This document shows positions 5,901-55,503 of a DNA stretch of 64,000 nt, piece by piece. Both the position numbers and the translations under genes were made by a program. The notes under the pieces are model-generated. The model ran no database searches, was not told the DNA's origin, and saw only the letters and a program-made list of their open reading frames with translations. Each line of letters opens with the position of its first letter. Positions within the stretch are counted from its first letter, which is position 1. Origin of the DNA: Azolla caroliniana. Taxonomy: Eukaryota > Plantae > Polypodiophyta. The stretch is from the NCBI GenBank assembly GCA_043228905.1, contig JBHGNT010000001.1, forward strand, positions 18,538,001-18,602,000, written 5' to 3'.

Positions 5901-5949
5901 ACATCAACAAAGATGAGGAATGACAAGAAACCCTACCACCATTGGCACA

Positions 5950-8179: not shown

Positions 8180-8530
8180 GACTCGTAGGCTCGGGTCTGG
8201 TTCGGCCTCTAACATTTGTTAATGAGGCTCCTCGCGTGGAATGTTCAAGGCTTGGGAAGCCCCTTGTACCGAAGATATAGAGGTAGGTTCAGGCAAGCAT
8301 TACAAAAGTCTCTTATGATGTTTCAAGAACATCATTTGAACAAGCAAAGAATAAGGAACTATGGCATTATATTGCCTGGTAGTTGGGAGATGTTTTGGTC
8401 CCCGGGTATTGGCACTAGTGGTACACAAGGCGGGGTGTGTATGGCAAAGAGATCATTGTACCAGGAAGAGCACAATATATTGTATTAAAAAATTTGCATA
8501 CAACTTGGGGTTACTTGAATATTTATGCAT

Positions 8531-11500
8531 TGTCGCGGAATCCACGCGGCCCTCCTGTCTGTATATACTAGGGCCTCAAAAGAAGCATGGAGCATGGCCG
8601 GTCAACCGCGCCCGCGCTCACGGACACACACACATACACACTGGCTACGATCGGCGCCTTTGCACCAACTCACTACGCACGCACCCGCACTTAGATACCT
8701 AGACACCTACGCCACCTCCCGGGACAAACGCACTCACATACGTACGCGGCATTTGACGCAACACCGGCTCCACACAGTCCGAACAACGACCTCTCGTCGC
8801 TAAGCCGCCAGTCAGGAGCACACGGGCTCGCCATAGCGAGTGGGGTCTTGCATGGTGGAGAGGGGTTTTCTACACAGAACCTTCGAGCACACGGGCTCGA
8901 CCTTAGCAACAACGCGGGATAATAGGGACACACACACAGAGATGCGGGGTGGAGAAGCAACCAAACAAAGAGAAAGAGAGAGAGAAGACAATCTATGTAT
9001 TGTTAGCCGCAACGAATACACACACTCACTCACACACAACAAATGAAGCCCTAGCAAGAAACAAAAATAGAAACATAAACGTACTTCGAGGAATAGAAAG
9101 GAAGAAACCCAACACAAGAGGAAAATACAATATTATTATGAAGGAAACCCAAAATGGAACCCGTAGAGGGGAACCTATGGAACCTCAAAAATGAGGAACC
9201 CTTTTACAAAGGACATTCCCTTCCTTTTATAGAACAAGGATAGGGATGCGTAATAATGTGGGATAAATCCCACTTTACATGCCGGATTCTCTGTCCCAAA
9301 TTAATTATTGTTCGGTGCCATAAAGATGCCCCTATCTTAACACATTTTATACAAGGGTAAGTGCACATGATACACTCCACCGATGCCATTAACTTCCCCG
9401 GGTTTTCTCACTATGGTCGTGAATCTTCACGACATCCGGCCCCACCAAACCACATGTCCACCAGTACGTGCCGAATCTGAAGAAGTTGTAGATTCCGGAC
9501 ATAGTGAGCAATTGGCCTTCCCTAATCCGCATTCTGGTTGTCGTGTCGGCCCCTGCCAATCTCGAACCGTCAACTCCGATTCCGTCTCCGTGCTCGCCTC
9601 TCCGTAGACTCATTCGACTTGTCGATAGGTCTTTCGCCACAATCCCCTCTTGTACGTGTGCTCGTCCTGTGGCCCTTCAATCGACCATATGCACGCTCCT
9701 CGCTTCGTCCTGCTCTTCCCTCCGGAAGCTCATTCCTTGGTTGGTCTCCACTCCTAACTCTAAACCCTCGTCGGCCTTCTTCACTTAGTGCCACCGTCAA
9801 TCTCTTGGTCTTATGTTGGCCCCCAATGTTGACCGTCGAAGTATCTAGCCCGGTGTGCCATTCTCCAAACTCGTTCCCGCACACGCTTCGTTGGCCCCTA
9901 CCCGGCTAGTTTGTGCCTTGTCGTTTCTCCGCATATCGGTGTCCTCCACGTCCGAGGAACACCCCGTCCCGTGTTAGCCCGCTCGGCCCCTTTCGTTCAC
10001 CGTCGTTGCAACCAGTTTGGTGCCTTCTGCTCTCCGTCGTCCCCTCACCCCCCTCCAGGTCGTTATCTCGGGCTTGGCTTGCCACACCAGTCGTTGCCAC
10101 TCCGACTGAGCCACCGAGATCTCCAAAGTGGGTGTGGAGGATATTTCTCAGGCCTCTGATGTTGTTTCCAGCCACCGACCCAAGTTACCTGTTTTACGCC
10201 CGGTTTACGTCCCAGCACCTCCGTGTGCCGTCTCGTTCCTTCCTTGTTCGTCACCACCTATGCCGAACACCAACCCGTATCTGTGCCTTTACCTCGGCCC
10301 TCGATGGCCACGCGCACATCTTTCGTTCCTCTTCCGGGTGTGCCCTTTTCGACTCAACACACCGCTCCCCACTTGGGTGTCCTTGGTAGCTTTCCATGCT
10401 GCTACCCACGAAGGATCACCCTTTCCCATTTCGGCTTGCCTGGCCTTCGTTTCCCTTGCGACGCCTTGGTTGCTTGGTGCCTATGTTGCTACTGCCTTCT
10501 TCCCCTCACCGCCACCATCAGTCTCTTGGTCTTACGTTGGCTCCTGATGCCAACCGCTGAAGTCTCTAGATCCGGGTGGAGGATCCTTCTCGGGCCTTCG
10601 ATCCGTTAGGCCACCGACTCGTGCACCAAGCGCGTCCAATCTTTGTCCTTCTGACCCGGCTGATCGAGTCTCTTGGTCTTACGTCGGCTCTCAATGCCGA
10701 CCGCTGAAGTCTCTAGCCTAGTGTGAGGTGAGCCATAAGTTCAGTCTTCATTCCTCCGCTCTCTCTTTGCACTTCTCTCGGACTCGTCTTCGTCCCCCTT
10801 CATGCGCTCCCGCTGCCATCTCCCTTCTTTCTGGTTTTACGTCGACTCCCGATGCCTGACTGCCGAAGTCTCCGGAAAACATGTGGGGATACCGATTCCG
10901 AAACGACTCCCGACGACTTTGTCCGAGGCCACTGACTTGTTCGTGCTATCGGTGGAAAGCACCTGCTTTATGATCGAGCAAACCCCAACTGGGCGTGCTT
11001 CTCCGATGTCCGGCGTTTCGGCCTCGTTGCCGAGCCTGCTAGATTTGTTCTGCTCCTTCGATCATCTCCTTCCCGGTTTTCAACCTTTGCCCGGCCGGTC
11101 ATTCTCCCTTTGTAAAAGATGCGGCTCGTCCCGCACCCTCTCCCTCATCTCGTACCGTCGTACCTCAATTGGCCTCCGCCTCCACCACGTACGTCTTGTC
11201 CATGCGCCCCCTTCCTGTTGTGATGTCGTGCTGTCACACGCCATCTCCGTTTTCCTTTACTAGGTGGCCACACTCTGTGAGCTTCTCCAAGCTCTTTTCT
11301 CCACCGGCCGGTTGATGCTTCGACAGAACTCGTGGGACTCCGTCCCCGTTGAAATGGTTGACTTCTTCGACCTTGCTCATCTTGTTGCGCCGCTTCTCGC
11401 CTCTTCTTCTCGAAGTCTTTGTCTTCCAACTCCATCCTCCCTTGCCACCCTTCACGTCGGGTTCACCAAAGATGTCGTGGAATACCGTGCTTGCATGTCG

Positions 11501-12525
11501 GATCTGGGCAGGACCACCGGGGTCATGGACCAAGAGGGAAGGAGTTTCCGGAAGGCCGAATCCTCTAGAGCCAGCCACATTGCCGGTCAAATCGGTTCCG
11601 GATGGTCCCGAAAGGGGCCCAGACTCTTGAAGGAAGAGAGCACGCGTGCGTGTATCCACGCAGCCCTCCTATTTGTATATACAAGGCCTCAAAAGAAGCA
11701 CGGGCCATGGCCCGGTCAACCGCACTCGTGCTCACGTACACGCACACACACACACCGACTACAATCGGCGCCATAGCACCAACTCACACGCACACTCCCT
11801 ACCTACGTTGCCTCCCGGGACACATGCACCCACATACGTATGCGGCGTTCGACACAACGCCGGCTCCACGGAGTCCGAACAATGACCTCTCATCGCCAAA
11901 ACTGACAGTCATGAGCACACGGGCTCGCCATCACAAGTGGAGTCTTGCACGGCGGAGAGGGGTTTTCTACACAGAACCTTCGAGCACATGGGCTCGACCT
12001 GAGCAACAACGTGGGACAACAGGGACACAAACAGAGACGCGGGGTGGAGAAGCAATCAAACAAAGAGAAAGAGAGAGAGAAGACAGTCCGCGTATTGTCA
12101 GCCGCAACGAACACACACACTCACTCACGCACAACAAATGAAACCCTAGCAAGAAATAGAAATAGAAACATAAACCTACTTTGAGGGATAGAAAGGAAGA
12201 AACCCAAACAAGAGCAAAATACAATACTATTATGAAGCAAACCCAAAATGGAACCCGTAGAGGGGAACCTATGGAACCTCAAAAATAAGGAACCCTTTTA
12301 CAAGGGACGCTCCCTTCCTTTTATAGAACAAGGAGAGGGATGCATAACAATGTGGGATAAATTCTGCATTACATGGGATTCTCTGTCCCGAATTAATTAT
12401 TGTTGGGCGCCATAAAGGCGCCCTTAGCTTAACACATTTTATACAAGGGTAAGTGTACATGATGCATTGTGCCAATGCCATTAACTTCCCCAGGTTTGTC
12501 ACTATGGTCGTGAATCTTCACAACA
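8531..12525 (-). mobile_element. Non-autonomous Gypsy of the TGTCG family: 5' LTR 11473-12525, 3' LTR 8531-9434, tRNA-Trp PBS, gag relic plus repeats, no pol
   Basis: Paired LTRs; minus-strand PBS TGGTGAACCCGACGTGAA at 11468-11451; PPT GGTTTGGTGGGGCCGGA abutting 9434; gag-like HFNGDGVPR; the 3' LTR lacks about 170-180 bp present in the 5' LTR. Confidence 0.88.
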
Positions 12526-12962
12526 ATGCCAAATTATAAAAGAATACATCTGCAAAAGCGTATGTGTAAGAGCATAGAGTACACAGCTCGGAAGTATGAC
12601 AGTTCCATAAACGCAGAAATCACAGAGAGAGAGAGAGGGAGAGCGAGAGAGAGAGAGGGAGAGCGAGAGAGAGAGAGGGAGAGCGAGAGAGAGAGAGAGA
12701 GAGCAAAACGAAACAAATATTTAGAATAATTCTCTGTATGTTCTCTATACATATTTTGTGCTCAGTGAGCACCTATTATACAAGCCTCGACTATTGGACT
12801 AACACAAGTACTGACAGTACTTGACCGTTCATAAATGAGCCTTCTATACTAACTCCTAAACTATTCCTTAAGAGGAATAACATTCTAACGGCCTTTCGGT
12901 TTAAACACCGCCACGAACATATTTTGTGTACGGTTTTATGCACCCAATATTGAGCTTGTCTC

Positions 12963-13865
12963 TCAACACTCCCCCTCAAGCTCAACTTGAGGTTCTGCAT
13001 GCTCCTCCGGATCTTCGCTCCGGCTTCTCTTGGCTTCACACGTCGCTCGCACTCCTCGACCCGTTCGATTCCGCCCGCTTCGACCCTTCCAGTCGGCTTG
13101 TCTAATCATGTAGCCCTTCTCAGATCCATTGTTGTCGCGGTATTGGCACCTCTTCCACTGCCCTTTCCTCCACTCGGTCCTTAGTTGATTCGGCATGTCC
13201 GAATCGAACATTTCAATTAAATCGGTCACTACCGATTCAATTCCACTTTCGCCCGATTTGGTTGTCTTCAATTTGTCTTCTGTCTTTAGGCCCTTGACAA
13301 CATCACACCACATCTTGGTCTTGGCCTTTACACCCTTCTTCGTAGTATTTCCCCTTTCTTCGACTGTCTTCGGCTCTTCCTTTCGATTACGGCCCTTGTT
13401 TTCTTCTTCGGCTTCTTCAGCCGACCCGAAATCGAATTCTTCATCCGATTCGGCATCGCGGTCACTATCGCTCCTTTCACGCTCTTGTTCATGTCTCCCC
13501 CTCAAGTTCGGGGTGTCGAGGTGATGAAAACCCAGCTCACCTGAGAAATGCCGCAACTTGTTGAGACCAAGGAGCTTGGTGAAGATGTCTGCAATTTGCC
13601 AACCCGTCGGAACATATGCCAGTTCGACTTCACCAGAGAGGACACGCTCGCGGACAAAATGATAGTGCACCTCAGTGTGCTTGGTCTGGGCGTGGAATAC
13701 AGGGTTTTTCGCAAGGTGGATGTTGTAGAGGTTGTCGCAATAGATCATCGTTGGATCGGACACCTCCACATGCAGATCCCATAATAGTTGTTTCAGCCAA
13801 AGGACTTCGCAAGTAGCGACAGTCGCCCCTCGATATTCGGCCTCCGTGCTCGACAGCACCACCAT
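12963..13865 (-). pseudogene. Copia RNase H with a ~180-aa charged C-terminal extension
   Basis: LSSTEAEY...CDN...KH.EVHYHF...ADIFTK, then NLRGR and an E/K/R-rich tail that is open up to the LTR. Confidence 0.8.
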
Positions 13866-15675
13866 CGGCTACTTCTTACTACTCCATGTGATCCCCGCAC
13901 TTCCCAATGAGAAGACATATCCGGATGTGGATCTACGATCGTGGGCATTTCCGGCCCAATCGACATCTGTGTAGCCAATTAACTGTTCGGCTACGCCTGT
14001 ACGATACAACAACGCCATGTCTTTCGTGCCACGGACATACCATAATATTCTCTGCATGCACTAAAGTTGTTCGGTCGTGACTGCGACATAAATTGATTGA
14101 TCATTCCAACCGGATAGCTAAGGTCCGACTGAGTGATCGTCAAGTAGATGAGGCTTCCGACAATCGGTCGAAACCGTGTTGGGTCGCATGCCTTTCTTGA
14201 ATCTCGGCGAAGCTTTACATTTCATCGAGAGGGGCCGAGATGGGCTTACAATTTGCCATCTCGAACGTGAAAAGCATATTCAACGCGTAATGACACTAAC
14301 TAATCAATATGCCTTTGGGGGAACGGATCACTTCGATCCCGAGGAATTAATGAAGGTCTCCAAGATCCTGCATTTCGGAGGATGTCGTGAGTTGAGACTT
14401 GACGCGACCGATTTCTTCCAAGTCGGCACCAGTGATAACTAAATCATCAACATAAAGTAAAAGGCTAACCAGTCCATGTTGACCTTGCCCAGTGAACAGT
14501 GAAGAGTCCGACATGGACGTTGTAAATCCCATTCTACACAACCGTTGTGTAATCTTCACGTTCCAAGCTCGCGGGGCTTGCTTAAGTCCGTATAATGCCT
14601 TCTTCAATCAGCAGACTGCCGAAGTGTTCTGTTCAAATAGAAATCTGGGGGGCTATACACATGTTCCTCAAGATCGCCTTCCAAGAACACATTTTTTACA
14701 TCCATCTGATGTAAGTGCCACCCCTTCACCACTGCTACGGCTCGCAAAACACGCACCATGGTCATCTTCACGACCGATGCAAACATCTCGTCGTAATCTA
14801 TGTCATGCTTCTGCACGTAGCCTTTCGCAACCAAATGGGCCTTATATCGATTGACGAACCCGTCAATGTTGTATTTCACCTTATACACCCATCTACATCC
14901 GATCAGCTTTACACCCTTCGGTGCGTCAACTAGGTCCCAAGTCTCAATGTCCGTTAATGCGCGCATCTCTTCCTCCATCGCGGCACGCCATTTTGCATCT
15001 TTCGCCGCTTCTGCATAGCTCTCCGGCTCACGCACTTCCGCCAGGCGTGTCATGTATGCATAATGATGCGCCATGTACTCATTGTACCCATACCTCTTTG
15101 TGGGGTTCTTCAGGCGGGTAGATCAGAGTAATTCTTGATTACCCAATTTCACGGCCTTTTCGGCCAATTTCGACCATCTCCTCGGTTCTTTATGCGGGGA
15201 CAACACAGTCGAGTCTCCACTACTCGCCGGCTGTTCATTTGGTTGACCATCTCGGCTCAACCCCTCATTCGGCCCGCTTAGCCGAAATGAGATTGGACTC
15301 TCTGTCAAAGCTCCAATTTCCTCATCACGCAGAGGCAGCTCGGCCTCACTAACCTCTTCTTCAAAATTCGGAATGGAGTCATCAAGGATTGGAGGTGAAG
15401 GCAAGTACCACGAAGCAGACTCGTCGAACACGACATCTCGGCTTACACGAACTTCCTTTGTTCGGGGTTTATAACACTTATACCCCTTTTGTTCATATGA
15501 ATAGCCGACCAATATGCACTTTTCGGCTTTGGCGTCCAGCTTCCTTCGTTTCTCCTTCGGCACATGCACGTACACGATGCTACCGAAAATGCTCAAGTGT
15601 GCCATTCTGCAAGTATCCATCCATCTTTATGGCTTCAGCCCAATAAAACTTCTCTTCAAGCATCACCCTAACCGT

Positions 15676-16539
15676 TGTCGTAGTGTAGGTTGCACACTAT
15701 GTGGAAATTATATTTGTGTCCCTCCGGATAGAGAATGGAGTGCTCGGTGAGAACCGGAGGAAAAACGGCATACCGGCAAGGAGGGAAAACGGTATACCGG
15801 CAAGGAAGAAAACGGCATACCGGCAAGGAGGAAAAACGGTATACCGGCAAGGAAGAAAACGGCATACCGGCAAGGAAGAGCCGGATAAAGAGACATAAAC
15901 GTAAAAGAAAAGGAAATACTCAATACTGCGCAGGGCGTGATTCGAACTCTGCACCTCCACGTTGACAAACCCCAACCTTACCATTACATTAACTTATCTT
16001 AAGTGTTTTAAATATAGATTTCATAGGTATAAGACCTTTATTTATGCATACCTTTATTAAAAGGTAAATCGTGTATTTCTTTAATATATGAAAAAGAAAA
16101 AACACGAGACACTAAAAATAACTCATGCACATCTAGCGTGCATGAGCACTATATTTAGCAAATAAAAGCAAGGATTAGAAAAGCATCACATGCATATTTA
16201 GTGTGCATGAACATATGAGAAAAAGCATGTAGCTATGCTTAGTCTCTCCCATCACTATATAAGGATGGGGAGCACATTGTAGTTGTTGTTGATTATTTGG
16301 ATTAAGAATTAATCAATACAAAAATTATTCGTGGGATTGACGATTTATACATCTACTTCTCTCTTAACACCCTAAGTACCAATTAATATAGTATACTCGT
16401 GTGATTCACGAGTTTCTTATCCTTCTCTTTGCTATTTACTCATAATTAATCTCTATCTCACGAACTCCTTTCTCCTAGTCCAAGACCTCTGTGGTTCCCA
16501 CCCGACTCACGCAACGATCCGGAGCCGAAAGGCACGACA
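15676..16539 (+). repeat. 5' LTR with five ~22-24-bp tandem repeats (AAAACGG(C/T)ATACCGGCAAGGA) at about 15760-15880
   Basis: Direct repeat of 22202-23070; CTATATAAGG near 16255. Confidence 0.95.
15903..15991 (-). promoter_or_regulatory. tRNA-like Pol III cassette antisense within the LTR (also present in the 3' LTR at about 22429-22517)
   Basis: Minus strand: TAATGTAATGG (15991-15981), AGTTCGAATCA (15948-15938), 43 nt apart, followed by TTTTCTTTT. Confidence 0.6.
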
Positions 16540-16544
16540 CAAGT

Positions 16545-16562
16545 TGGTGAACCCGACGTGAA
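16545..16562 (+). other. Primer-binding site complementary to the 3' end of plant cytosolic tRNA-Trp
   Basis: TGGTGAACCCGACGTGAA is the reverse complement of ...TTCACGTCGGGTTCACCA (tRNA-Trp 3' end, from recall). Confidence 0.85.
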
Positions 16563-16578
16563 GACGGGTGGCAAGGAG

Positions 16579-18612
16579 ATGGAGGCTCAACAAGCTAACA
16601 ATATGATGGCGATGTTCGAACGGATGCTTCAAGAACAACGCACGATGTCGGAGATTTCGGCATCAGTAGAGCGGCTCGTGCAACGCAACGGGCAATTTAA
16701 TGGTAAGGATGTGTCGCGATATTTGCAGGACTACAAGGCGGAGATGCTCCGGTGCCGGGCTTCGGAAGGACTGCAAGTGACATCCTTTAACCGGGTGGCG
16801 ACCGACGGGCTTCAAGGGAGTATCCACGGGTTGCAACAACAAAATCCGACGTGGGAAGCATTCGAAGAGGCGTTAAAGACCACGTTTGCCATCGAGGACT
16901 CCTCCAAGGCAACGCGGAGGGGATTCGAGGATTGGGTGGAAACGTCAGGTAAGGGGCTGAAGGTCCTCGAAGTGTTTTCGGCATTCGAAAGTCGGTTCGG
17001 GAGGTTGTCCGCGAGAGATCAAACTATTCTTGCACCGGACAAAGTCATCATGTTTTTGCGAGCTGTGGACGTCCGGGACCGGAAAGATCTCGGAGTGCTT
17101 CTTGAGGACACGACCACCGAAAGCGGCCTCACCGAAACATGGGAAAGCGTGCGGGATATCGTCGCGCGGTACACGAAGAGGGGGCAATGGCTTGCCAACG
17201 AAGAAAAGAGGGTTTCGGAACCGATTCCGAAACCGAGAACGGGACTGGAAGACCATCAACCGAGGGCTCGGGAGATTACGGCCGAGAAGGGAGTCGACGC
17301 GTCTACGGTGGAGCAGCTGCTGAAGGAGATGGAGAATCTAAAGATCGCGATGGTGAAGAAGTCGGATGACCGCCCCACAAGCTCCAAATATACGGATCGA
17401 CGGTGCATATGGTGCGATAGCGCCGAACACGATCGGAGGGATTGCGACGACCATAAGGAGGCGCTACGACGGGATCTCATCTACTACGAGGGAAACCGGA
17501 TTCATTCGATGGACTCTCGGAAGCCACTCCGACCGAACTTCCGGAAAGGCGGCATGAAGAAGGTGCTCGAGGAGGAGTTAGCGGCAAGAAGCAACTATGC
17601 GACAACCGCGGGAATATGTGTCGGGGAGTCATCGGGAGCGAAGGCGTCTTTCTGGCCGGAGGTGCTAGGAAACACCGAGAAAACCGACTCCAACGATATC
17701 CGAAACACCGCGGAAGGCGTCCGGGAAGCTACGGGATGGGAGTGCCCTGTCGACAAGAATAGCATATACGCCCTGTGTCAATTACATGAGGTGTATGTGG
17801 ACGAGAAACGACGGCGCACGGAGGATGCGGCCGGACCATCGAAGATACCGGAAAGCTGGAACTCCGGAGGTAAGGGAAAAGAAAAGGCGACTCCGGCATT
17901 CAAGCTCGCCTCGGACATAGAACAACAAACCGACTTGAAAAGAGTGTTCGAGGAAAGAATCTTGGATAGCCGGGTAGATTTTTCGCTGCGGGAACTACTC
18001 GGAATAGCGAAGAAGGAGTTTCACGATCTTCTCGTGGATCTCGTGAAAAGGAAGAGACAAAGTACGGAGGAAAATGCTCCAAGGGTGAATGCAAATACCG
18101 TTTCAATGAACGACACCGAAGTGGAAGGCGAAATTCCGAACTCCCACTATACAAGGCCACACTGGGCACGTGCGACTACGGAGACTCCGGTCCGAATCGG
18201 CAACATCAAAGAACCCGTGCTAGCATTGATTGATCACGGATCGGAGATCAACTTGATGTCCAAGGAGTTCTACCGAAAGGGGAAGTGGCCTATAAACACC
18301 AACCATGGATGGAAGATTCGGGCAGCCACGAAAACGACAGAAGACCTATTTGCGGCTTGTCCGGATGTGACGGTAAAGATCGGGGATGTCGAAATTGACC
18401 AAAATTTCTTTGTGCAGGATGAGGTTTCACATTCTGTCATCCTCGGCCAACCCTTTATCACGGCTTCACGGATGGAGACGAAGGTGCTCGATAGTGGTGC
18501 GGCTTTTGCGCGAATTCGGAGCCAAAACGGAGGGAAATCCGTCCAAACGGTGCCAGCAAATCACGAAAGGAACAAGAGGGAACTCTTGTCCCAAGTGAGA
18601 ATGGATTTTTAA
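16579..18612 (+). CDS. gag: Gag-protease polyprotein
   Basis: Open frame with first ATG at 16579; zinc knuckle CIWCDSAEHDRRDC; aspartic protease LIDHGSEINL...VILGQPF. Confidence 0.9.
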   Translation: MEAQQANNMMAMFERMLQEQRTMSEISASVERLVQRNGQFNGKDVSRYLQDYKAEMLRCRASEGLQVTSFNRVATDGLQGSIHGLQQQNPTWEAFEEALKTTFAIEDSSKATRRGFEDWVETSGKGLKVLEVFSAFESRFGRLSARDQTILAPDKVIMFLRAVDVRDRKDLGVLLEDTTTESGLTETWESVRDIVARYTKRGQWLANEEKRVSEPIPKPRTGLEDHQPRAREITAEKGVDASTVEQLLKEMENLKIAMVKKSDDRPTSSKYTDRRCIWCDSAEHDRRDCDDHKEALRRDLIYYEGNRIHSMDSRKPLRPNFRKGGMKKVLEEELAARSNYATTAGICVGESSGAKASFWPEVLGNTEKTDSNDIRNTAEGVREATGWECPVDKNSIYALCQLHEVYVDEKRRRTEDAAGPSKIPESWNSGGKGKEKATPAFKLASDIEQQTDLKRVFEERILDSRVDFSLRELLGIAKKEFHDLLVDLVKRKRQSTEENAPRVNANTVSMNDTEVEGEIPNSHYTRPHWARATTETPVRIGNIKEPVLALIDHGSEINLMSKEFYRKGKWPINTNHGWKIRAATKTTEDLFAACPDVTVKIGDVEIDQNFFVQDEVSHSVILGQPFITASRMETKVLDSGAAFARIRSQNGGKSVQTVPANHERNKRELLSQVRMDF

Positions 18613-21600
18613 AGCGGACTGTTGCGGAGTGGGGAAGTGATAGTCCGAGAAGCCTTGATACCCCACACAGGAAGAAAACTCTCGGAGCAAAACAAGTACG
18701 AATCGGCCCGGATGGGGCATCTACGTACACGGCCGTAACCGGAGGAATGAAGAAACAATACCGACAAGTGGAGGATAAGTTACGGTCGGCATCAATAATA
18801 AAAGAAGATGAAGAAATCGTGGGAGTGATCGAGGAAGTGTTCTATGGGAATACACTACAACGGCTTGAAGAGCTTGCGGAAGATAAAAGCCAAGGGAACC
18901 GGGTAGTCCCGGTGGAATCGGTCGAGATGTACGAGATCGTTGCGAAAATGGGGCCGGATGCGCTCCGCAAAGAAGAAGCAATGGTAAGTACGAGATACAA
19001 GACCGTGGAGAAAAAGGTGAAACCGGCCGCGGGACCACTACCCGCCGATAGCGAACAAAAGAAGAAAGAAGTCTCGGGAGATCCGACACTTCGGAAGTCC
19101 GTGGATATCGGACATGCCTTCACAGATGAGACCCGGAAGAAACTTCGGATCGGTGGAGGTGGGTTCCTCTTACAAGAAGAAGAAAAACGGTTTCGAGAGA
19201 TGTTGGAGCAACATGGCAAAGCATTCGCGTTCACATCGAGGGAGATCGGATGCATTGATCCAAAGATAGTGGAGCCGATGGTGATTTTCACGATTGATCA
19301 TGTACCGTGGAACCTGAAGCCGATTCCGGTGCCACGGGCGCATATTCCGAAAGTCATCGACTTGCTCAAGGAGAAGGTGGCGATGGGGATTCTAGAGCCA
19401 TCAAGTGCTCCGTACTCAAATCGATGGTTTACGGTTCCGAAGAAGAATGGGTCACTCCGATTCATCCAAGACTTGCAACCGGTGAACAAGGTCACGATCC
19501 GGAACTCGGGAGTCGGTCCGATAGTGGACGAATTCGCGGAAGCTTTTGCCGGACGTGCGATATACTCCATCGGGGACCTATACTCGGGGTATGACCAATT
19601 CCAACTAGCCGTGGAGAGCCGAGACATCACTACCATGCGGACACCGATAGGACTAGTTCGAATGTGCACACTACCACAAGGAGCGACAAACTCGGTTGCA
19701 CATATGATGAACGCGATGAACAAGGTGCTTCGAGATTGCATCCCGGAGATAACGATGCCGTTTCTAGATGACATTCCGATGAAAGGATGCGCGGTGGAAG
19801 AAAAAGATGAGACTATGGATGATCGGGGATGCCGAAAGTTCGTGGTCGACCATATTCATGATTGCGAGAAAGTGTTGCGAAAGCTAGAAGATGTGCACCT
19901 AACACTTTCCGGGGAGAAATCGGCATTCGGGCAAGAAGAAATATTGGTGGTCGGACATCTATGTGGACCCTACGGCCGAAGACCGTCACCAACAAAGATC
20001 GATGCGATTCAAGCTATGAAGGAAGTATGTGAGTCAACATCGGAAGTCCGAAGGTTTCTGGGTGCGTGTGCATTCTATCACATATGGATTCCGCACTATG
20101 CACATATAGCGGACCCGCTCTATCACTTGTTGCGGAAAGGTAAGAAATTCGAGTGGAAACCGGAACACACTAAAGCCATGAGGAAGCTCAAGAAGACACT
20201 ATGGAGGGCGGAATCACTTAAGAAGCCAAGCTACGAGCGGCCAATCATAGTAACGGTTGATACAAGTCCAACCGGTATCGGGTGGGTCATCAATCAAGCC
20301 GACTCGGATGGTTCGCGGTATCCGATCCGATTTGGAGCAAAGGTCCTCAACGAAAGGCAACGCGGATATGCACAAGTCAAAAGAGAATTGTGGGGAGTCG
20401 TGTCGGCGATAAAATCGGATCGGGATTATTTGATCGGAGCTGAAGTGGTGATCGAGACGGATTGTCTTCCGATACTCGGGATGATGCGGTGTTGTACGAT
20501 ACCGGATGTGGCTATGCTAAGGTGGATTGCATATGTCAAGTCACTTAATCCGGAGGTTCGACACATCTCGGGGAAGGACAACGCGGTAGCGGACATGTTA
20601 TCGAGGGCGCGGTTTGAAGACGACATAACCGAATCAGATAATGAAGAAGTTTCCGAAGACTACTTCACATCAGAACACATATGCCGAGTGAACGTGATCC
20701 GAGAATTCCGGGAAGAAGAATACGAGGGGGAAACCTTGATGATCGGGAAGATGCTACAAGAGGTCGAGGATTCAACCAATGATAAAGAAAGGAGAGCCGA
20801 GATCCGAAGGAAGAAGAGGCAAGTCCAAAAGTTCTTCTTGGAAAACGGTTTAATATGGAGGACGCCGAAAAGACCGGATGGGATACCACTTCGAGTAGTC
20901 GGGACGAAAGAGCAACGAAACCGGATAATGTCCGAGTTCCACGAATCCGATTGGGCTGGACATCGAGGAACATGGGCAACTTTTGTGAAAATCAAGCAAA
21001 GATATTGGTGGAAGAACATGTATAAAGATGTCGCGGAGTTCACAGAAAGCTGCGAGAAATGTCAAGTCTACTCCGGGGTCCGACACCGAGATGAGCTGCA
21101 TCCGACATTCTCACCGACAATCAACTTCAAGTGGATGGTCGACATTGTAGCTATGCCGACCGGGATTGGACAAAAGAAATACTTGGTGTTAGCTCGAGAA
21201 GATCTCACAAACCAAGTTGAAGGTCGAGCGCTTCGGAGGAAAACGTGTGCCGCGGTGTGCCAGTTTCTTTTGGAAGAAGTGTTTTGTAGGTACGGCTGCG
21301 TAGGACAAGTGATTGCGGACCGGGGAGAACTCGACTCGGACAAAGCTAGGGGATTCTTCGCCAAACATGGAGTTCGGTTAACGTTGACAACGGCCTACAA
21401 TCCGGAGGCCAACGGGAAGATCGAACGAGGACATAGTCCGATCGTGAAAGCACTTGCTAAGGCATGCGACGGAAGGGTGAAGGATTGGCCACAAATGCTT
21501 CCGTATGCACTATGGGCGGATCGGACGACGCATAGCTCCGTGACCGGTTACATGCCGGCAGAACTCATGACCGGACAAGCACCGGTAATGCCAACGGAAA

Positions 21601-22214
21601 CCGCAATCGCGACATGGACAATACTACCGTGGAAGGAAGAGATGAGCCGGGAAGAACTACTAGCGGTCCGGATACGACAACTGGAGGGAAGACCGAAAGA
21701 TGTAGCGGACGCGTCACGCCGACAACAAGAAGCACGGTTCCGGAACAAAAGCCGGTTCGACACAAAGCACCGACTACGACCGAGGAGGATTGAAGAAGGA
21801 GATTGGGTGATCGTCTATGATAGTAGCTTGGACCATCAACATACAACGATGCGGAAATTCGCGAAAAGGTGGTTCGGGCCGTACGAGGTTCGGAAGGTCT
21901 TCGACAACGGGACGTACCGACTGTCCGAGTTGGATGGAACAATACTACGAGTGCCTATAGCCGGGAAGCGGGTGAAGATTTTCAAGAAGCGGACCGACGA
22001 CAAACCTTATGTGATCCAAGTCGAGGCCGACAACGAGGAGCAATCGGACGAAGACCACAATGATGCGGGAAGCGAAGAAAGTGGATTACAACTCATAGTC
22101 GACATAAGGGGAGAATCGGAGGAAGCTTCGGATGAAGACGGATACGAAGAATCAAGAACTTCGGCACATACCGGAGGATGTGCGGGTTTGGAGGGGGCGA
22201 GTGTCGTAGTGTAG
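18603..22214 (+). CDS. pol: Pol (RT-RNase H-integrase) in the -1 frame relative to gag-pro; first ATG at 18747
   Basis: RT DLYSGYDQ, LPQGATNS, PFLDD; RH VDTSPTGIG, ETDC; IN H..DWAGH...CEKC, VD...DRG...E, WFGPY; the frame is open from 18603. Confidence 0.93.
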   Translation, partial: GFLKRTVAEWGSDSPRSLDTPHRKKTLGAKQVRIGPDGASTYTAVTGGMKKQYRQVEDKLRSASIIKEDEEIVGVIEEVFYGNTLQRLEELAEDKSQGNRVVPVESVEMYEIVAKMGPDALRKEEAMVSTRYKTVEKKVKPAAGPLPADSEQKKKEVSGDPTLRKSVDIGHAFTDETRKKLRIGGGGFLLQEEEKRFREMLEQHGKAFAFTSREIGCIDPKIVEPMVIFTIDHVPWNLKPIPVPRAHIPKVIDLLKEKVAMGILEPSSAPYSNRWFTVPKKNGSLRFIQDLQPVNKVTIRNSGVGPIVDEFAEAFAGRAIYSIGDLYSGYDQFQLAVESRDITTMRTPIGLVRMCTLPQGATNSVAHMMNAMNKVLRDCIPEITMPFLDDIPMKGCAVEEKDETMDDRGCRKFVVDHIHDCEKVLRKLEDVHLTLSGEKSAFGQEEILVVGHLCGPYGRRPSPTKIDAIQAMKEVCESTSEVRRFLGACAFYHIWIPHYAHIADPLYHLLRKGKKFEWKPEHTKAMRKLKKTLWRAESLKKPSYERPIIVTVDTSPTGIGWVINQADSDGSRYPIRFGAKVLNERQRGYAQVKRELWGVVSAIKSDRDYLIGAEVVIETDCLPILGMMRCCTIPDVAMLRWIAYVKSLNPEVRHISGKDNAVADMLSRARFEDDITESDNEEVSEDYFTSEHICRVNVIREFREEEYEGETLMIGKMLQEVEDSTNDKERRAEIRRKKRQVQKFFLENGLIWRTPKRPDGIPLRVVGTKEQRNRIMSEFHESDWAGHRGTWATFVKIKQRYWWKNMYKDVAEFTESCEKCQVYSGVRHRDELHPTFSPTINFKWMVDIVAMPTGIGQKKYLVLAREDLTNQVEGRALRRKTCAAVCQFLLEEVFCRYGCVGQVIADRGELDSDKARGFFAKHGVRLTLTTAYNPEANGKIERGHSPIVKALAKACDGRVKDWPQMLPYALWADRTTHSSVTGYMPAELMTGQAPVMPTETAIATWTILPWKEEMSREELLAVRIRQLEGRPKDVADASRRQQEARFRNKSRFDTKHRLRPRRIEEGDWVIVYDSSLDHQHTTMRKFAKRWFGPYEVRKVFDNGTYRLSELDGTILRVPIAGKRVKIFKKRTDDKPYVIQVEADNEEQSDEDHNDAGSEESGLQLIVDIRGESEEASDEDGYEESRTSAHTGGCAGLEGASVVV

Positions 22215-36933: not shown

Positions 36934-36964
<31 letters not shown>

Positions 36965-47523: not shown

Positions 47524-47560
<37 letters not shown>

Positions 47561-48280: not shown

Positions 48281-48289
48281 ATTAATCGG

Positions 48290-48748: not shown

Positions 48749-51480
48749 TGTGGTGTCCCTTTCATGCGAGTGCATGCCTCTTAACACACCACCCTTTCGC
48801 ACAACCTTTTGGGACGCATGTAGCTAGGCTGGCCCAAAATGGGTACCTTTGTATCTTCTATAAATTGAACGATAAGTAAGAATCTAGGCAAGCTGGTTTG
48901 GTTTCCTTTTATGTGCATTTCACATAATTGGTGGAGAAGCGAGGTAAAATTTTAGCCATTACCACTTAGTTCATGGCATCCCAATTCCCTTCCGTTGCCT
49001 CAAACATCGATACCTCGATGGAGCCCGAGTTCTCGCAACCTCACGAACGACCACCCCCTTTCCAAATAGAGCAGCTCCTCCAACTCCTCTCCAACTTCAT
49101 GCTTCAAATCAACCACACAAATCAAGCTATGCTCTCCTTCCTCTTCGCTAACAATGACCACACTCAAGATCGGTCAAATTTCAACGTCCACCGAAAGACC
49201 TTCTCCAGCTTGCCTTCCGAGGATGTCTTAGCCTAGTTGGACCACTTTGAGATGATCTCCAGCTACCACCGATGGTCTGACGAGCACAAAGCTTTGGAAG
49301 TTCGTTGAAAATGTCGTCGCCACCTGGTACGTCCAACAATCAAGCGACCTGATAGAGAACTGGGTGGTCCTCCGAGATCTCCTCGTGCAAAACTTTGCCC
49401 ATCAAAATTCGGCCAAAACGGTGTTACAACAACTCGAAATGTTGCGGCAACAAGCACACGAACCCGTGGGCCAATTTGGTGTTCGCCTCAATCAACTCCT
49501 CGTTCGTGCTGACACTACCATGCTCGAGCATGTGAAGCTTTTCTTTTTATGGCCCCGTTTGCGCCATGACATCACTCGTCGCGCTCGGGACCAAGGTCCC
49601 AAGACAGTCAACGACGCCATCCTCATTGCCCAATTCATTGAAGCTTGTACGTTATTTGACTCCCAACCACGTTGGCGGCCCCCATGGACATTGATGTCCA
49701 AAACATACAATTGTAGGCTCGCCACAACCTTCCCAATCGCGATGCCCAAGGGCGCCCAAAGTGTTTCTATTGCAACAATTATGGACACGTCCGACGTCAC
49801 TACCGGAAATTGCAACAACAGTCTGAGAAGCAACAAGTCTAGATAACTATGGATGACGCGGCATCGTTGCCTGAGTTTCCGGGGTACTGATGGAAGAGCT
49901 AGCCTTCCACATCCAAGCGTCTGTCTCTTCCAGTTCGCAGGTATGTACCGCTCTCGCCACCATTAATCACTACACCCACACCATCTTGTTAAACTCTGGT
50001 AGTAGTATCTCTTCCATTAGCACCGCCTTAGTTCACCATATAGGTCGCCCCACATCCACCGCTCCTTCCATCCAAGTCCTTTTTGGCGATCAAACATCGT
50101 TACCACTCTTGCACGCAAGTCCAGAGCACCTTCACCTTAGGAACTCTGACCTTCTCACACCACTTTTATGTCTTGCCCCACCAACTCTTTACCCTGACCT
50201 TAGGTTGTGATTGGTTCCTCAAGCGTCACGTTGTGATTGATTTTGATGCCCATAAACTTCTTGTCCCACATGCTCCCGCTATCCCCCTTCTACACAATAG
50301 CTCCCCTATCCCCCACCTTAGCCAAGTCCAGGTGGCCCTTAGTCCAAAGGATCCATTGGTCTCCATGCGCCAATTATTAGCTCGTTTTCCGTCACTAACC
50401 CTCCAACCCACGCATGCTCCTACTATCTCTTTCCCGATACAACAAGCCATTCATACCGGTGAAGCCACTCCGATCCACATGGCTACCCGCCGACGTTCCC
50501 CCCTTGACCACGATCGTATTGATGTTGCCGTCACCGACATGCTCACCAAAGGTATTATCATTCCTTCCACCTGTGATTAGGTTTTGGAACCCCACCTAGT
50601 CAAGAAGGATGATTGCACCTTCCGCTTTTGCATCGACTTCAGGACTCTCAACAAAGTGACTATCCAAGACCTCTATCCGCTCCCTTGCATGGACAACCCC
50701 TTGGATCAAATCAGTGGCTCTCATTATTTCACCTCCCTAGTCTTAGCCTCGAGATATTGGCGAATCCCCGTAAAGCCTTCTAACACCCACAAGACCGCAT
50801 TCCGCACACATCGCGGGGTATTCCAATTCACGCGCATGTCGCTCGGCCTGTGGGATGCCGGCAGCACATTCTAATGCATGGAAAACTCCATCTTCACCGC
50901 CCTTATCAGCAAAGGTGTCCTCGTTTATCTCAATGACATCCTTATTCACACAGACACTTGGGAGGACCTTCTACAAACTCTCGCCGAAGTCCTCGCTTGC
51001 ATAACTAAACATAACGTGCAACTCCAATGGAAGAAGTGTCGATGGGGAAGCCCTAGACTCCATTTTCTTGGCTTCATCATGTCTAGTGATGGAATCCATA
51101 TGGACATTGCAAAAGGTGGTAGCCATCACCGATTACCCCAACCCCACCTCAATAAAATCATTGCAACATTTTTTGGGCATGATCACCTTTTCACGAACCT
51201 CTCCTTGGTCACTTTTCCCTCTACCAACTCTTGAAGAAAGGTGTGTCATTCATTAGGGATCCTCCTTGCGAAGTTAGGTTTTGTCACCCCAAAACCATGG
51301 TCTAGGAATGGGGGTTGCTCGCCCATCCACACTTTGACCAACCATTCACTTTGCAGACAGACACATCAAACCATGGGTTAGGAGCCGTCCTCTTGCAAGC
51401 TAATTGCCACGGGCAAGAAAAGGCTATCACCTTCATTAGCCGCACTCTCACACCAGCTAAACACAACTACTCAACCACCG
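48749..51480 (+). mobile_element. Degenerate Ty3/Gypsy with a short LTR (48749-48924), tRNA-Ala-like PBS, gag-PR-RT-RH; 3' truncated
   Basis: TGTG...CACA; TGGTGGAGAAGCGAGG at 48929; CFYCNNYGH knuckle; LLNSGS; RFCIDFR.LNKVT, VYLND; QTDTSNHGLG...NYSTT. Confidence 0.85.
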
Positions 51481-53075
51481 TTCCACATCCTCCGGTCTTT
51501 GCTCGAGCTGCCGGATCCGCGCCGCTAACAACTCCTCCCGGCTCATCTCGTCTTTCCAGTCCACCACAGCCCATGAGGAGATCGTTCGCTCCATTGGCAT
51601 GACCGGCTTCTGCCCGTACATCAACTCCGTTGGCATGAACCCGGTTACCGAACTGTGCGTAGTTCGGTCGGCCCACAACGCATAGGGTAAGAGTCGCGGC
51701 CAATTTCCGACTTGGCCTCCACCTGCCCGCACTAACGCTTTGACGATCAGCTCGTGTCCGCATTCCACCTTTCCGTTCGCCTCCGGATTGTACGCCATGG
51801 TGAGCGAGAGTTCAACCCCTAGCCAGTCATACAACTCTTCAACCTCTTGTGTGTCTAGTTCTCTATGGTCGGCTATGATCTTTCCTACGCACCCGTACTG
51901 GCATACCACCTCTTCGATCAGAAATCAGCATACGCTCGCGATCGTTTTGTTCGTCAGTGCTCGACCTTCCACCTGGTTTGTCAGGTCCTCCCGTGCCAGC
52001 ACCAGGTATCGCATCTGCCCTACCCTCATCGGCATCGTCACCCTCTACGAAGCCCGTCTTTTCTTCAACAGGGTCACTCCACCCGGTTACCTCCCGGACC
52101 CGTCTTTCCGCGCGGTCCGCTTCCTCTTTCCTCAATCGTATGCCAGCGAGGCCTTCTAGCATCAACGGCCAGAACCCAGAGTTCTTCGTCTTCTGGACTT
52201 CGTCGCTCGACCCGGATTCCTGCCGCCGCCGAGTAGTGGACAGTCTCCACGTGGCGAGCCGCCGCTTCTTCCATCAGCCGCTCCATTCCCCCTCGTCCAA
52301 CATTCAATTCCAGGGTCCTCCTGGTTTCTCTAACGTGTACACGCACGCCCATTCCACAGGTACACAACGTTAGACCTTATCACTTCAACGAAATCCCCGT
52401 TGTCCTTCCGGGCGTGGCCGACCGCGTCGCACCATAAGCACTGATGCCCGGCCGAAGGCCTTTGGTCACGGGCTTGTTCGCCATTGTCCCTCCATGCATG
52501 TGCAATCTGGAGGTCCCTCACCATCTGAGTTAGCTCCTCCAGAGCCGCACCTCCGGACGGGCCTTTGACCACGTTGGTCGAAGTCGAGCCGGTGTCTAGC
52601 CAATCTTGGGTCTCCTCCCTTCGTGTCGGTAGGGGTACCTCGAGCTTACTTGCCGCAACAGAGCTTGCCCCCGCCGTGCCTTTATCGACCCAATCTTGCC
52701 GTTTGTTGAAACGGCCGCAGACTCTCTTCACCACGGCCCAATCGGCCGTCAACCCATCGTCGGTCTCCCGCAGGAGGCCCACTTGCTCCCGGTCCCTCAC
52801 GTCCACTGATTTAACAAACAATAGGACACGACTTGTGTCCAGTACGGTCCGGTCTAGCGCCAAAAGATGCGCAAAGAGTTCTTCAAACTCCCGGAGGAGC
52901 ACCGACGCGTTTCTCCCCTTTTCGGGGGGGTCTCCACCCATTCCATGAAGTCTCGCTTCGATAGCTGAAGCGCGTCATCAAGCCCATATTTCTCAAGGAG
53001 TCGACCTTCAAATTCTTCCCAGGTCTGGCTCTCAGCCCGTACCTTGAGCACCTCCGCATGGATGCTCGGCATTGC
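51481..53075 (-). pseudogene. Internally deleted TGTCG-family fragment: gag (53075-52040) fused to the integrase core (52040-51481)
   Basis: DFMEWVETP, FVKSVDVRDRE, CLWCDAVGH; AYNPEANGKVE.GH, LPYALWADRTTHSSVTG, MSREELLA.RIRQLE match the intact element. Confidence 0.88.
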
Positions 53076-53079
53076 CACT

Positions 53080-53227
53080 CGAGTCTAAATGCGTGCTACC
53101 TAGGATATTCACATCAGCCGACTTGTGCCTAAATGTATATATTACAACAAAACTTGAGCCGACGTATAAGGGCCAGTTCGCGCACATTAATCTCTGATTC
53201 CGCCTAGGGACGGTATTCTCCATGACA
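53080..53227 (+). repeat. 3' end of a TGTCG-family LTR followed by target half-site ACGT
   Basis: Ends CGGTATTCTCCATGACA, resembling the CGGTATTCCACGACA and CGTATTTTCGCGACA ends; abuts Copia RT codons (G)AC GTG AAG. Confidence 0.65.
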
Positions 53228-55503
53228 ACGTGAAGAATGCATTTCTTCAAGGCGATCTTGAAGAAGAGGTCTTTATGACCCAACCCCCCAGTTTCCAATC
53301 GGAGATGAACAAGTCGGCGGTATGCCGGCTGAAGAAGTCACTTTATGGCTTGAAGCAAGCCCCCCGAGCTTGGAATGCGAAGATCACGCACCAGTTGCGT
53401 AAGATGGGGTTTGCGTCCTCCAAGTCCGATTCTTCGTTGTTCATCCAGTAAGGTTCAGACGGTCTGGTTTGCATCTTGTTGTATGTTGATGATCTAGTCA
53501 TCACCGGACCCGGACTCGATGAAATCAGCCGAGTCAAGTCCCAGCTGTCAGACGCATTTGAGATGAAGGACCTGGGGGACCTTCACTATTCCCTTGGGAT
53601 CAAGGTGATCCGAACCCCCGACGGCATATTGCTCTTACAAAGACACTATGTGTTGAATATATTGTACAAGTTCGGCATGACGGAATGCCGACCGATCTCC
53701 ACACCTCTAGACCGGAACCAAAAGCTCTGTCCCGACTCCAGACCAGCCTGCGATGAGAAACGGTTCCAACAAATCGTCGGAAGCCTTATATATTTGACAA
53801 TCACCCGACCCGACATCAGTTATCCGGTCGGCGTGATCAGCCAATATATGCAGAAGCCGACCGTGGAGCACCTTTTGTGCAAATGTGAGCGGCACGAAAG
53901 ATTGAGGATTGTTATACTAGCATTGTATGACCGAAGAGCTAGTTGGCTACACCAATGCCGACTGGGCCGGCGATGCATCGGATCACCGATCCACCTCTAA
54001 TATATGTTTTCCCTTGGTAGCACGGTTGTTACGAGGAGCAGCAAAAAGCAGCCAATAGTGGCCCTTTCGAGCATTGAGGTTGAATACCGAGGCACTACCA
54101 TTGCCATCTGTGAAGCCATTTGGCTTCGGTGACTGCTGCAAGACCTGCGGATCGAGGTGCTAACCCCGATCTTGATCTATTGCGACAACATAAGCAGCAT
54201 GCAGCTCGCCAAGAACCCCATATTCCATGCTCGCACAAAGCACATAGAAGTGCATTACCACTTCGTGCGTGAGCGGGTCCTAAGCGGTGAAGTCGAACTT
54301 TGGTATGTTCATACGGATCGGCAAGTTGCCGACATCTTCATGAAGCCGCTCAGATCGGACAAGTTGCAGCACTTCACCAAAATGCTTGGTGTTCAGCATC
54401 TCGACGTGCCACACTTGAGGGGGAGAACGGGCAAAGACATCGGAACGGGCAAAGGCAAAGAAACTGCCGATTGTGCCAGTGAGGGAAGAACCGACAAAGG
54501 GAGAGACAAGAAGAAGAAAGGAGTTGAGTTGACAAAGGAAGTTGACACATCCGAACAAGTCGGAACAAGCGGCAACGGCGGCAGAGTCAAGAAGGACAGA
54601 GCCGACTGGAAGAAGAAGGCCAAGACCCGGACATGGTCTGATGTGGTGAAGGGCCTAGAGCCGAAAGACGAATCGGGAGCGACTGATTTGGACAAGAGCT
54701 GGAATGAATCAGAGACAGTTGATTCAGTTCAACAGAAGGATTCAAAAGAACCGAATCAATTCAAGGCCAAGAGGACGAGAAGACTGCAAAAGTTGACGCC
54801 AACACGAAGGAATGGGCGAATCGGCATGCATCGAAGTCACAATAGCGAGGGAGCTTAAATTGGGCCTGTTGAGCAGACAAGCCGACCGAGGAGGTCGAGG
54901 TGCGCAGAATAAGAAGGGTCGCGGCAAACGGGAACGGACCGGACGAGGAGCGCGAGCGAGGCGGAGTGACGCCTGAAGGAGCAGGGTGGAAGGACCGACT
55001 GCCATGGAGACTAACACTACGATCCGACCTCACGTTGAGCTTGAGGGGGAGTGTTGAGCGGCAAGCTCAACCGTATTTGGATTGGCTGAATAAGCCTGAG
55101 CCGGATCGGCATTCGAAAGGATGAGCCGGTGAGCAAGTGAGCCGGTGGGTGAGCTGGGGAGCCGGGGAGCCGGTTAGCCGGATCAAGCAGTAACTGGAAG
55201 CCTAGTAGCAGCCTAGACTACTAGGTAGTTAATGTCTCATAGTTAGTGTCAAACGCTCGTGTGAGCATTGAAGTACACTGTACTTTTGTCAGTCCTCTTA
55301 GGACTTGTATAAATAGTGTTGTTGAGCACGTTGTATGTACAGAGATTTTTACAGAGTTGTTGATAATAGATTTAAGTTGTTCTGCTCTTTCTCTGTCTCT
55401 TCTGCATACCTTTTGTGTGTTAATCTCTCTCTCTCTCTCTCTCTCTCTCTGTTGCTATCCGGCTAAGCCGGTTGTCTAATGCTTCCGCACCTTCGTTTTT
55501 AGA
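53228..55503 (+). mobile_element. 3' half of a Copia closely related to 40476-47593 (RT-RH-extension; 3' LTR 55052-55503)
   Basis: High visible identity to 45350-47593; PPT copies at 54414-54425 and 55040-55051. Confidence 0.92.

What the first reader, a model, noticed from the sequence alone, without database searches (positions are those of the whole stretch)
8527..53231. Gypsy family that appears to integrate at CG-centred 4-bp target sites
Seen: all five readable insertion sites of TGTCG...CGACA elements have CG in the middle of a 4-bp site. Two are exact TSDs: CCGT (15672/23071) and CCGG (42067/43376). Two are one-sided: ACGT (37854, a rare CpG in a TA/CA field) and ACGT (53228). The fifth is reconstructed as GCGC (8527/12526). 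The Copias here make 5-bp TSDs. Established: most plant LTR elements make 5-bp TSDs with weak sequence bias. Inference: this chromodomain-less integrase recognises CG, possibly methylated CG, which would steer it into other silenced TEs. Four of the five sites lie inside other TEs and one in simple repeat.
Basis: partly seen in the sequence, partly recalled or inferred. Interest (0 to 1): 0.85.

Follow-up and report, generated by a model that had tools for sequence, protein, structure and literature searches.

The report
Phygy-type retrotransposons insert at CG
Several related jumping genes in this plant (likely a fern) insert into four-letter sites with CG in the middle, a habit already published for the moss Phygy lineage to which they likely belong, and whether their integrase senses methylated CG is untested.

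Summary
The CG preference is real but already in print. Two exact 4-bp TSDs (CCGT, CCGG) and two one-sided ACGT sites are confirmed. The fifth site is not a readable TSD, although the host LINE frame supports a 4-bp GC(G/A)C site. In 56 related loci, 20 of 24 LTR/flank junctions have central CG against a 4.5% background (p about 1e-23), and 3 more are TG/CA. Loose-end consensuses from public contigs read ACGT, ACGG and ACGC. These are several families of one lineage, not one family. Neumann et al. 2019 define Phygy by a 4-bp NCGN TSD, PBS-Trp and no extra domain. The intact element fits except for a slightly short length, and a 2026 paper lists Phygy in ferns. Placement against REXdb references was not possible. 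Nothing here supports methyl-CG sensing: the integrase has no reader domain. Insertion into other TEs is the default in such DNA. Most likely the integrase kinks and reads the central CG step itself (inferred; conserved DRGE and QH motifs are candidates). The scan noted NCGN TSDs before in a fungal window (e1-10582392).

The parts
15676..23070 (+). Full-length Phygy-type Ty3/gypsy element, 7395 bp, inserted in the integrase region of a Copia
   Evidence: LTRs 96.8% identical over ungapped columns
15672..15675 (+). Left TSD CCGT
23071..23074 (+). Right TSD CCGT
15676..16539 (+). 5' LTR, TGTCG...CGACA
16545..16561 (+). Primer-binding site; its complement is the CCA-ending small RNA filed as miR894 and marked as a PBS complement; tRNA-Trp identity recalled
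16450..18612 (+). Gag-protease ORF (P0002; DUF4100 and weak Asp_protease_2)
18495..22214 (+). RT-RNaseH-integrase ORF (P0001), overlapping the first ORF; GPY motif, no chromodomain, acidic tail
20904..21995 (+). Integrase; closest solved fold is the PFV intasome; conserved D942-R-G-E945 and CTD loop Q1115-H1116..K1121 (P0001 numbering) are candidate target-reading residues
22202..23070 (+). 3' LTR, preceded by a polypurine tract
42071..43375 (+). Solo LTR of another family of the lineage, inside a Copia; matches the LTR of PBS-bearing loci L032, L018, L031
42067..42070 (+). Left TSD CCGG
43376..43379 (+). Right TSD CCGG
37858..40475 (+). Truncated non-autonomous element (LTR 37858-38421, PBS 38426-38442, decayed gag, no pol), cut by a Copia; resembles the second element of L029
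37854..37857 (+). One-sided target site ACGT in a TA/CA simple-repeat field
51480..53227 (-). Deleted element of the lineage (LTR start, gag piece, integrase piece 67% identical to P0001)
53228..53231 (+). One-sided target site ACGT inside Copia RT; uninterrupted in the sister copy at 45345
8531..12525 (-). Old non-autonomous element (LTRs 12525-11473 and 9434-8531, 89% identical; PBS 11468-11452), inserted in a LINE-like endonuclease region
8527..8530 (+). Flank GCAT (does not match the other side)
12526..12529 (+). Flank ATGC; with GCAT and the host frame it suggests a decayed GC(G/A)C TSD
12535..24965 (-). Host Copia with exact 5-bp TSD CAAAT (12530-12534 and 24966-24970); control for TSD length
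28983..34487 (-). Copia with 5-bp TSD CGAAA/CGAAG (one mismatch); control

Best explanation
These are several families of a chromodomain-less Ty3/gypsy lineage, likely Phygy, that insert at 4-bp sites centred on CG, likely because the integrase itself bends the target at that central step and reads the bases there. Shown: the 4-bp stagger, the CG preference, the flanking bias (consensus VCGB, best ACGT: T in 0 of 24 at the first position, A in 1 of 24 at the fourth) and the lack of a reader domain. Inferred from retroviral intasomes: a 4-bp stagger needs a sharp kink at the central step, which favours pyrimidine-purine steps and disfavours T and A at the outer TSD positions. Narrowing this from any YR step to CG would need base contacts; the conserved Glu at the place of PFV Ala188 (DRGE) and the conserved QH/RK loop of the C-terminal domain are the predicted candidates. 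TG/CA centres are likely later deamination of methylated CG. Landing inside other TEs would follow from a repeat-filled genome.
For: - 20 of 24 junctions in related loci are CG at outward positions 2-3, and CG sits at the same outward positions from 5' and 3' ends, which fits 4 bp and not 5 (p 1e-23 against 0.045). With the six dropped rows kept it is 21 of 30.
- Loose-end consensus ACGT from 50 contigs (X5) and 41 contigs (X8, same sample) on a reference with no CG at that place.
- ACGG (19 contigs, X5) and ACGC (14 contigs, X12, another organism label); 32 and 17 further contigs align on through the window's CGT.
- The Phygy profile in print is 4 bp 100% NCGN, tRNA-Trp 81%, no extra domain, and ferns contain Phygy.
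- 34 of 56 related loci show the same PBS.
- P0001 nests among Riccia elements.
- Retroviral 4-bp sites select central YR and disfavour T/A at positions 0/+3.
- E945 aligns to PFV Ala188 and is kept in 72 of 74 rows; Q1115 in 67, H1116 in 66, K1121 in 74 of 74.
Against: - No REXdb Phygy sequence could be read, so lineage rests on features and on closeness to liverwort elements.
- 7395 bp is just under the published Phygy range of 7656-9968 bp.
- Only two two-sided TSDs were seen. The 24 junctions are one-sided and come from collapsed contigs, 54 of 56 loci from one series of assemblies; L023 has different flanks at its two ends.
- The read evidence is a majority consensus with 342 and 26 rows hidden, and favours flanks that match CGT.
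- The role of the named residues is untested, and the tree was the quick method.
Confidence: 0.8

Rival explanations
1. The integrase core senses the methylation state of the CG (it prefers 5mCG, or avoids it), which biases insertion towards or away from silenced DNA without a chromodomain.
For: All five window sites lie in TEs or repeat. Most junction flanks are CpG-poor (about 1-6%, most near 2%), as old methylated DNA is. Three of 24 sites and three LTR ends show CG decay. A palindromic CG on the dyad of the intasome would place both methyl groups symmetrically (inference). Phygy was enriched at centromeres in a liverwort.
Against: No Chromo, MBD or SRA hit in 25 Pol proteins, while the same scan finds the neighbouring chromovirus's chromodomain. 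Decay shows methylation after insertion, not before. CG methylation covers most features of a fern genome, so sequence cannot separate the two. Retroviral local preferences were largely independent of chromatin. Two literature searches found nothing (strict all-term searches).
Confidence: 0.12
2. A host chromatin factor tethers the integration complex to CG-rich or heterochromatic regions, and the CG centre is a by-product of local composition.
For: Centromeric enrichment of Phygy in a liverwort. Phygy nests into Tcn1 in moss.
Against: The signal is confined to positions 2-3. CG at the other outward positions is 0-2 of 23-24, and flank CG density is 2.4%, below the 4.5% average. The integrase tail is short and unconserved.
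Confidence: 0.05
3. The motif is an artefact of ascertainment or of small numbers.
For: Five sites in the window, one reconstructed. Six of 30 junction rows were dropped.
Against: Junctions were defined from LTR ends next to PBS and PPT, blind to flanks. 21 of 30 are CG with nothing dropped. Independent read consensuses agree, and so does the published Phygy motif (n=186).
Confidence: 0.02

Closest known systems
Phygy clade, non-chromovirus Ty3/gypsy (Neumann et al. 2019, PMC6317226; passages and Additional file 5 read)
   Same: 4-bp TSD with NCGN, a PBS recalled as tRNA-Trp, no chromodomain or extra RNase H, coding region spanning nearly all of the interior, non-seed-plant relatives.
   Different: Described from the moss Physcomitrella; here a likely fern with several families plus non-autonomous derivatives. 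7395 bp against 7656-9968. The outer-base bias (VCGB) and conserved TGTCG...CGACA ends were not in the passages read.
Ginger1 DNA transposons (Bao et al. 2010, PMC2836005; passages read)
   Same: Gypsy-type integrase with GPY/F motif; 4-bp TSD CCGG (75%) or CCGT/ACGG (24%); TGTNR ends.
   Different: Cut-and-paste animal DNA transposons with TIRs and no RT; they favour CCGG, while ACGT is commonest here.
Prototype foamy virus and other 4-bp-TSD retroviral intasomes (Serrao et al. 2015, PMC4422553; passages read)
   Same: 4-bp stagger, central YR step, T/A disfavoured at the outer TSD positions; best sequence and fold match in PDB (21% identity).
   Different: Their YR preference is a modest enrichment over any YR step; here it is about 83% CG specifically.
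TatI and Selgy (Neumann 2019, Additional file 5)
   Same: 4-bp TSD, non-chromovirus; TatI has PBS-Trp.
   Different: TatI carries an extra archaeal RNase H and is about 9.1 kb; Selgy uses tRNA-Ala and is about 5 kb; no NCGN is listed for either.

Membership tests
Phygy | Ty3/gypsy order GAG-PROT-RT-RH-INT | tested here: met
Phygy | No chromodomain or other extra domain in the polyprotein | tested here: met
   No Chromo in 25 of 25 Pol proteins or in the tail; positive control hit at window 2711-2938
Phygy | 4-bp TSD | tested here: met
   2 of 2 exact two-sided TSDs; symmetric CG position in one-sided junctions
Phygy | NCGN target motif | tested here: met
   4 of 4 readable window sites; 20 of 24 junctions
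Phygy | PBS complementary to tRNA-Trp | tested here: inconclusive
   A conserved 17-nt PBS is in 3 window elements and 34 of 56 loci. Its complement is a CCA-ending plant small RNA marked as a PBS complement. The Trp identity is recalled; no tRNA gene with it was found
Phygy | Short element, coding region spans nearly the whole interior; 7656-9968 bp in moss | tested here: inconclusive
   Interior almost fully coding; 7395 bp is 261 bp under the published minimum
Phygy | RT/RH/INT phylogeny groups with REXdb Phygy references | not testable with these tools
   Additional files 1 and 3 too large to read; no named Physcomitrium protein among listed hits; nests among Riccia elements in a quick tree
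TatI | Extra archaeal-type RNase H domain | tested here: not met
   One RNase H only in P0001; RVT_3 hit in 1 of 25 rows at E 0.063
Selgy | About 5 kb (4432-6724), PBS tRNA-Ala | tested here: not met
   7395 bp; PBS recalled as Trp
Chromovirus (Tcn1, Galadriel, Tekay) | Chromodomain at the integrase C-terminus | tested here: not met
Ginger1 | DNA transposon with TIRs, no reverse transcriptase | tested here: not met
   LTRs, PBS, PPT and RT present

The most novel reading that the evidence does not exclude
The Phygy-type integrase core reads 5-methyl-CG directly, through the conserved DRGE glutamate/arginine and the QH loop, making it a methylation-guided integrase that finds silenced DNA without any reader domain; Phygy, Ginger1 and the fungal NCGN elements would share this ancient mode.
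Probability: 0.12. Interest if true: 0.75.

Novelty: new member of a known kind. Interest (0 to 1): 0.25.

Why it matters
As it stands, this extends a published but little-studied trait (Phygy's NCGN preference, one sentence and one table cell in Neumann 2019) from moss to several families in a likely fern. It also supplies a young element whose gag-protease and RT-RH-INT reading frames are open, and candidate residues for a biochemical test. Sequence-specific LTR integrases are rare in plants, so the enzyme is a useful model for how a 4-bp intasome narrows from any flexible step to CG. It would matter much more if methylation of the CG changed integration, because that would be a chromodomain-free route to heterochromatin; nothing here shows that.

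Tried and rejected
- No whole genome is held, so the genome-wide TSD logo could not be built.
- Viral contigs gave no relatives and no LTR-PBS match.
- A tRNA gene matching the PBS was not found in genome contigs, in 120 viral stretches, in the window or by Rfam.
- No named Physcomitrium protein appeared in two homologue searches (best 120 of 315 and of 151 listed) or ten cluster look-ups. The Atlas gave unnamed clusters without taxa at the top.
- A link to fungal Ylt1 and its TSD was not settled by passages of PMC2864245 and PMC5014426.
- Six of 30 junction rows were dropped as not true LTR/host junctions: L008 534 (repeat inside the LTR; itself TCGA), L011 1983 and L046 4155 (PBS spacer), L043 6863 (no TG end), L049 7143 and L051 7049 (copy of the LTR start inside the LTR). 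L044 1003 (ACTT) was kept although it abuts another LTR piece.
- Classing flanks against this window alone found TE or satellite similarity for 11 of 24, too weak a library to test targeting.
- An alternative site-5 TSD ATGC with two extra bases, and a 5-bp TSD, both put the host LINE-like frame out of register. The endonuclease hit itself is weak (E 0.063).
- One search was translated in the wrong frame and is not used.
- The careful tree did not finish; only the quick one is cited.
Full report
Observation. The window is gene-free nested plant TE sequence with a CG frequency of 0.045; no whole genome is held. A full Ty3/gypsy element at 15676-23070 has an exact TSD CCGT, and a solo LTR at 42071-43375 has an exact TSD CCGG. 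Neither extends to five bases. One-sided ACGT sites stand at 37854, in a TA/CA field with 24 CG in 2954 nt, and at 53228, where the sister Copia at 45345 shows the same ACGT uninterrupted. Four CG-centred sites of four would arise by chance about 4 times in a million (my arithmetic).

The fifth site reads GCAT on one side and ATGC on the other, so it is not a visible TSD. The host there looks like a LINE endonuclease (weak Pfam hit, E 0.063; RT further on). Its left flank ends in WGYLNIYA and its right flank, beyond a nested Copia, starts NHASARKHFW. The two stay in frame if four bases were duplicated, not five (coordinates), which supports a decayed GC(G/A)C site. The Copias give 5-bp TSDs: CAAAT exact and CGAAA/CGAAG.

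What the elements are. They are not one family. Self-BLAST finds no LTR-to-LTR alignment among them beyond short pieces, and two lie on the minus strand. They share TGTCG...CGACA ends, three of them decayed, and one PBS. The intact copy has a gag-protease ORF and an overlapping RT-RH-INT ORF, with LTRs 96.8% identical. The copies at 8531 and 37858 are non-autonomous and the one at 51480 is deleted. The closest named proteins are from the liverwort Riccia (64% identity at best), and in a quick tree P0001 nests among Riccia elements. A chromovirus with a clear chromodomain lies at the start of the window. Phygy together with Tcn1 is what ferns are reported to contain (PMC13477047, passage).

Test beyond the window. 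A metagenome scan returned 56 loci (from the best 80 of 253 stretches); 54 come from one series of assemblies and are collapsed contigs. 34 of 56 show the same PBS; I did not examine the other 22 one by one, and many are truncated. LTR ends taken from next to the PBS and the polypurine tract were used to find junctions with host DNA without looking at the flanks. This gave 30 rows, six of which I dropped as LTR-internal or PBS-side (listed under Tried and rejected). Of the 24 kept, 20 have CG at outward positions 2-3, three have TG or CA, and one has neither (p 1e-23 against 0.045). With nothing dropped it is 21 of 30. CG sits at the same outward positions from both ends, which fits a 4-bp duplication. 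Other positions show CG in 0-2 of 23-24, and flank CG density is 2.4%. The first base was never T and the fourth was A once, so the motif is VCGB with ACGT commonest (7 of 24).

Public contigs agree. Twenty listed runs hold the element or part of it. On a reference that has the PBS after the LTR, the loose ends behind the LTR end read ACGT in consensus (50 contigs in X5; 41 in X8, the same sample). X1 and X12 showed no row at that place among the 24 printed, with 342 hidden. On a reference with the real CCGT flank, the unextended ends read ACGG (19, X5) and ACGC (14, X12, labelled another organism), and 32 and 17 more aligned on through CGT (26 rows hidden, and this design favours CGT flanks). 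These are majority consensuses, not per-site counts.

How it likely works. The integrase's best sequence and fold matches are the PFV intasome and then Ty3 (21% identity, mean pLDDT 86). For retroviruses with 4-bp TSDs, the central step is enriched for flexible YR, T and A are disfavoured at the outer TSD positions, and local preferences are largely independent of chromatin (PMC4422553, passages). The outer-base bias here matches that. Narrowing to CG needs more than flexibility, so base contacts are inferred. E945 aligns with PFV Ala188, a target-contacting residue, and is kept in 72 of 74 rows, R943 in 67. A C-terminal-domain loop keeps Q1115 (67), H1116 (66) and K1121 (74). That this loop corresponds to the PFV Arg329 loop is recalled and was not superposed. 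None of these residues is tested.

Methylation. No Chromo, MBD or SRA family was hit in 25 Pol proteins, and after the C-terminal domain there is only a short, acidic, unconserved tail. TG/CA centres and decayed LTR ends show methylation after insertion, not choice of methylated targets. In a fern, 85% of the genome is repeats and CG methylation covers most features (PMC9477723, passages). At least 73% of this window is TE by my rough blocks. Insertion into TEs is therefore the null, and sequence alone cannot separate methyl-CG from CG recognition. In favour of the rival: most flanks are CpG-poor, and Phygy was enriched at centromeres in a liverwort (PMC12885004, passages). Two searches for methylation-guided retrotransposon integration returned no paper, but both demanded many terms at once.

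Comparison with what is known. Neumann et al. 2019 write that Phygy elements have an insertion preference for NCGN (PMC6317226, passages). Their Additional file 5 gives Phygy n=186, 4 bp 100% NCGN, 7656-9968 bp, tRNA-Trp 81%, no extra domain (read whole). Jedlicka et al. 2019 saw GC-rich centres in 4-bp plant TSDs (PMC6911290, passages). Ginger1 DNA transposons with gypsy-type integrases use CCGG or CCGT/ACGG in 99% of cases (PMC2836005, passages). A search for NCGN with retrotransposon found only Neumann 2019 and one unrelated paper, so the trait is in print but little followed up. The element meets the Phygy tests of domain order, lack of extra domain, TSD length and motif. It is 261 bp under the published size range, and the Trp identity of its PBS is recalled (the complement is listed as a PBS-complementary small RNA in PMC5846777, passages). 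Phylogenetic placement could not be run because the reference files were too large. TatI, Selgy, chromovirus and Ginger1 each fail a defining feature. Passages of PMC2864245, PMC5014426, PMC6839031, PMC13469084 and PMC8282616 were read and added nothing on this motif.

Verdict. The CG-centred 4-bp preference is real and strong, and it is a new instance of a known kind: a likely Phygy lineage in a likely fern. Interest 0.25.

Noticed in passing
window 46-3440: Chromovirus with a clear chromodomain (2711-2938, Pfam Chromo E 1e-16) whose 3' LTR appears to run TGTCA...TGACA and is followed by GCTAC; such ends mimic decayed TGTCG...CGACA ends and would contaminate a harvest by termini alone.
   Followed up: partly
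window 4519-5920: A further decayed integrase fragment of the same lineage (53% identical to P0001) with a 230-bp tandem duplication at 4537-4998; no termini found.
   Followed up: partly
window 12526-12535: A Copia inserted only nine bases from the end of the old gypsy element; its LTR end has decayed from TG to TA.
   Followed up: yes
window 11473-11653: The 5' LTR of the old element carries about 150-180 extra bases at its PBS-side end that its 3' LTR lacks; possible recombination between two subfamilies.
   Followed up: no
window 34900-37857 and 48460-48740; L023 8440, L025 1069, L053 2688: A degenerate TA/CA simple-repeat field; three junctions in related loci also abut a similar repeat, each at a rare CG.
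   Followed up: partly
L029 7553-11295: A non-autonomous element like window 37858-40475 sits in tandem behind an autonomous one, with a PBS right after the LTR between them; L032 also shows PPT-LTR-PBS. Could be tandem arrays or assembly collapse.
   Followed up: no
L049 7016/7143, L051 6922/7049, L008 480-575: LTRs contain internal copies of their own terminal motif, and LTR ends form longer imperfect inverted repeats than TG...CA.
   Followed up: no
window 16545-16561: The PBS complement equals the widely reported plant 'miR894', so that small RNA could target this lineage.
   Followed up: no
window 18495-18612: The break between the two ORFs falls after the protease (gag-PR, then RT-RH-INT in an overlapping frame); Neumann lists Phygy's organisation as not determined.
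   Followed up: no
window 45352-47593 and 53228-55486: Two 88%-identical Copia 3' halves; the first is cut at the end of its LTR (about 47595) and the second lacks its 5' half, so deletions have removed partner ends.
   Followed up: partly
window 27120-28190, 57800-59230, 63120-63331: Tandem arrays with units of about 164, 157 and 101 bp.
   Followed up: no
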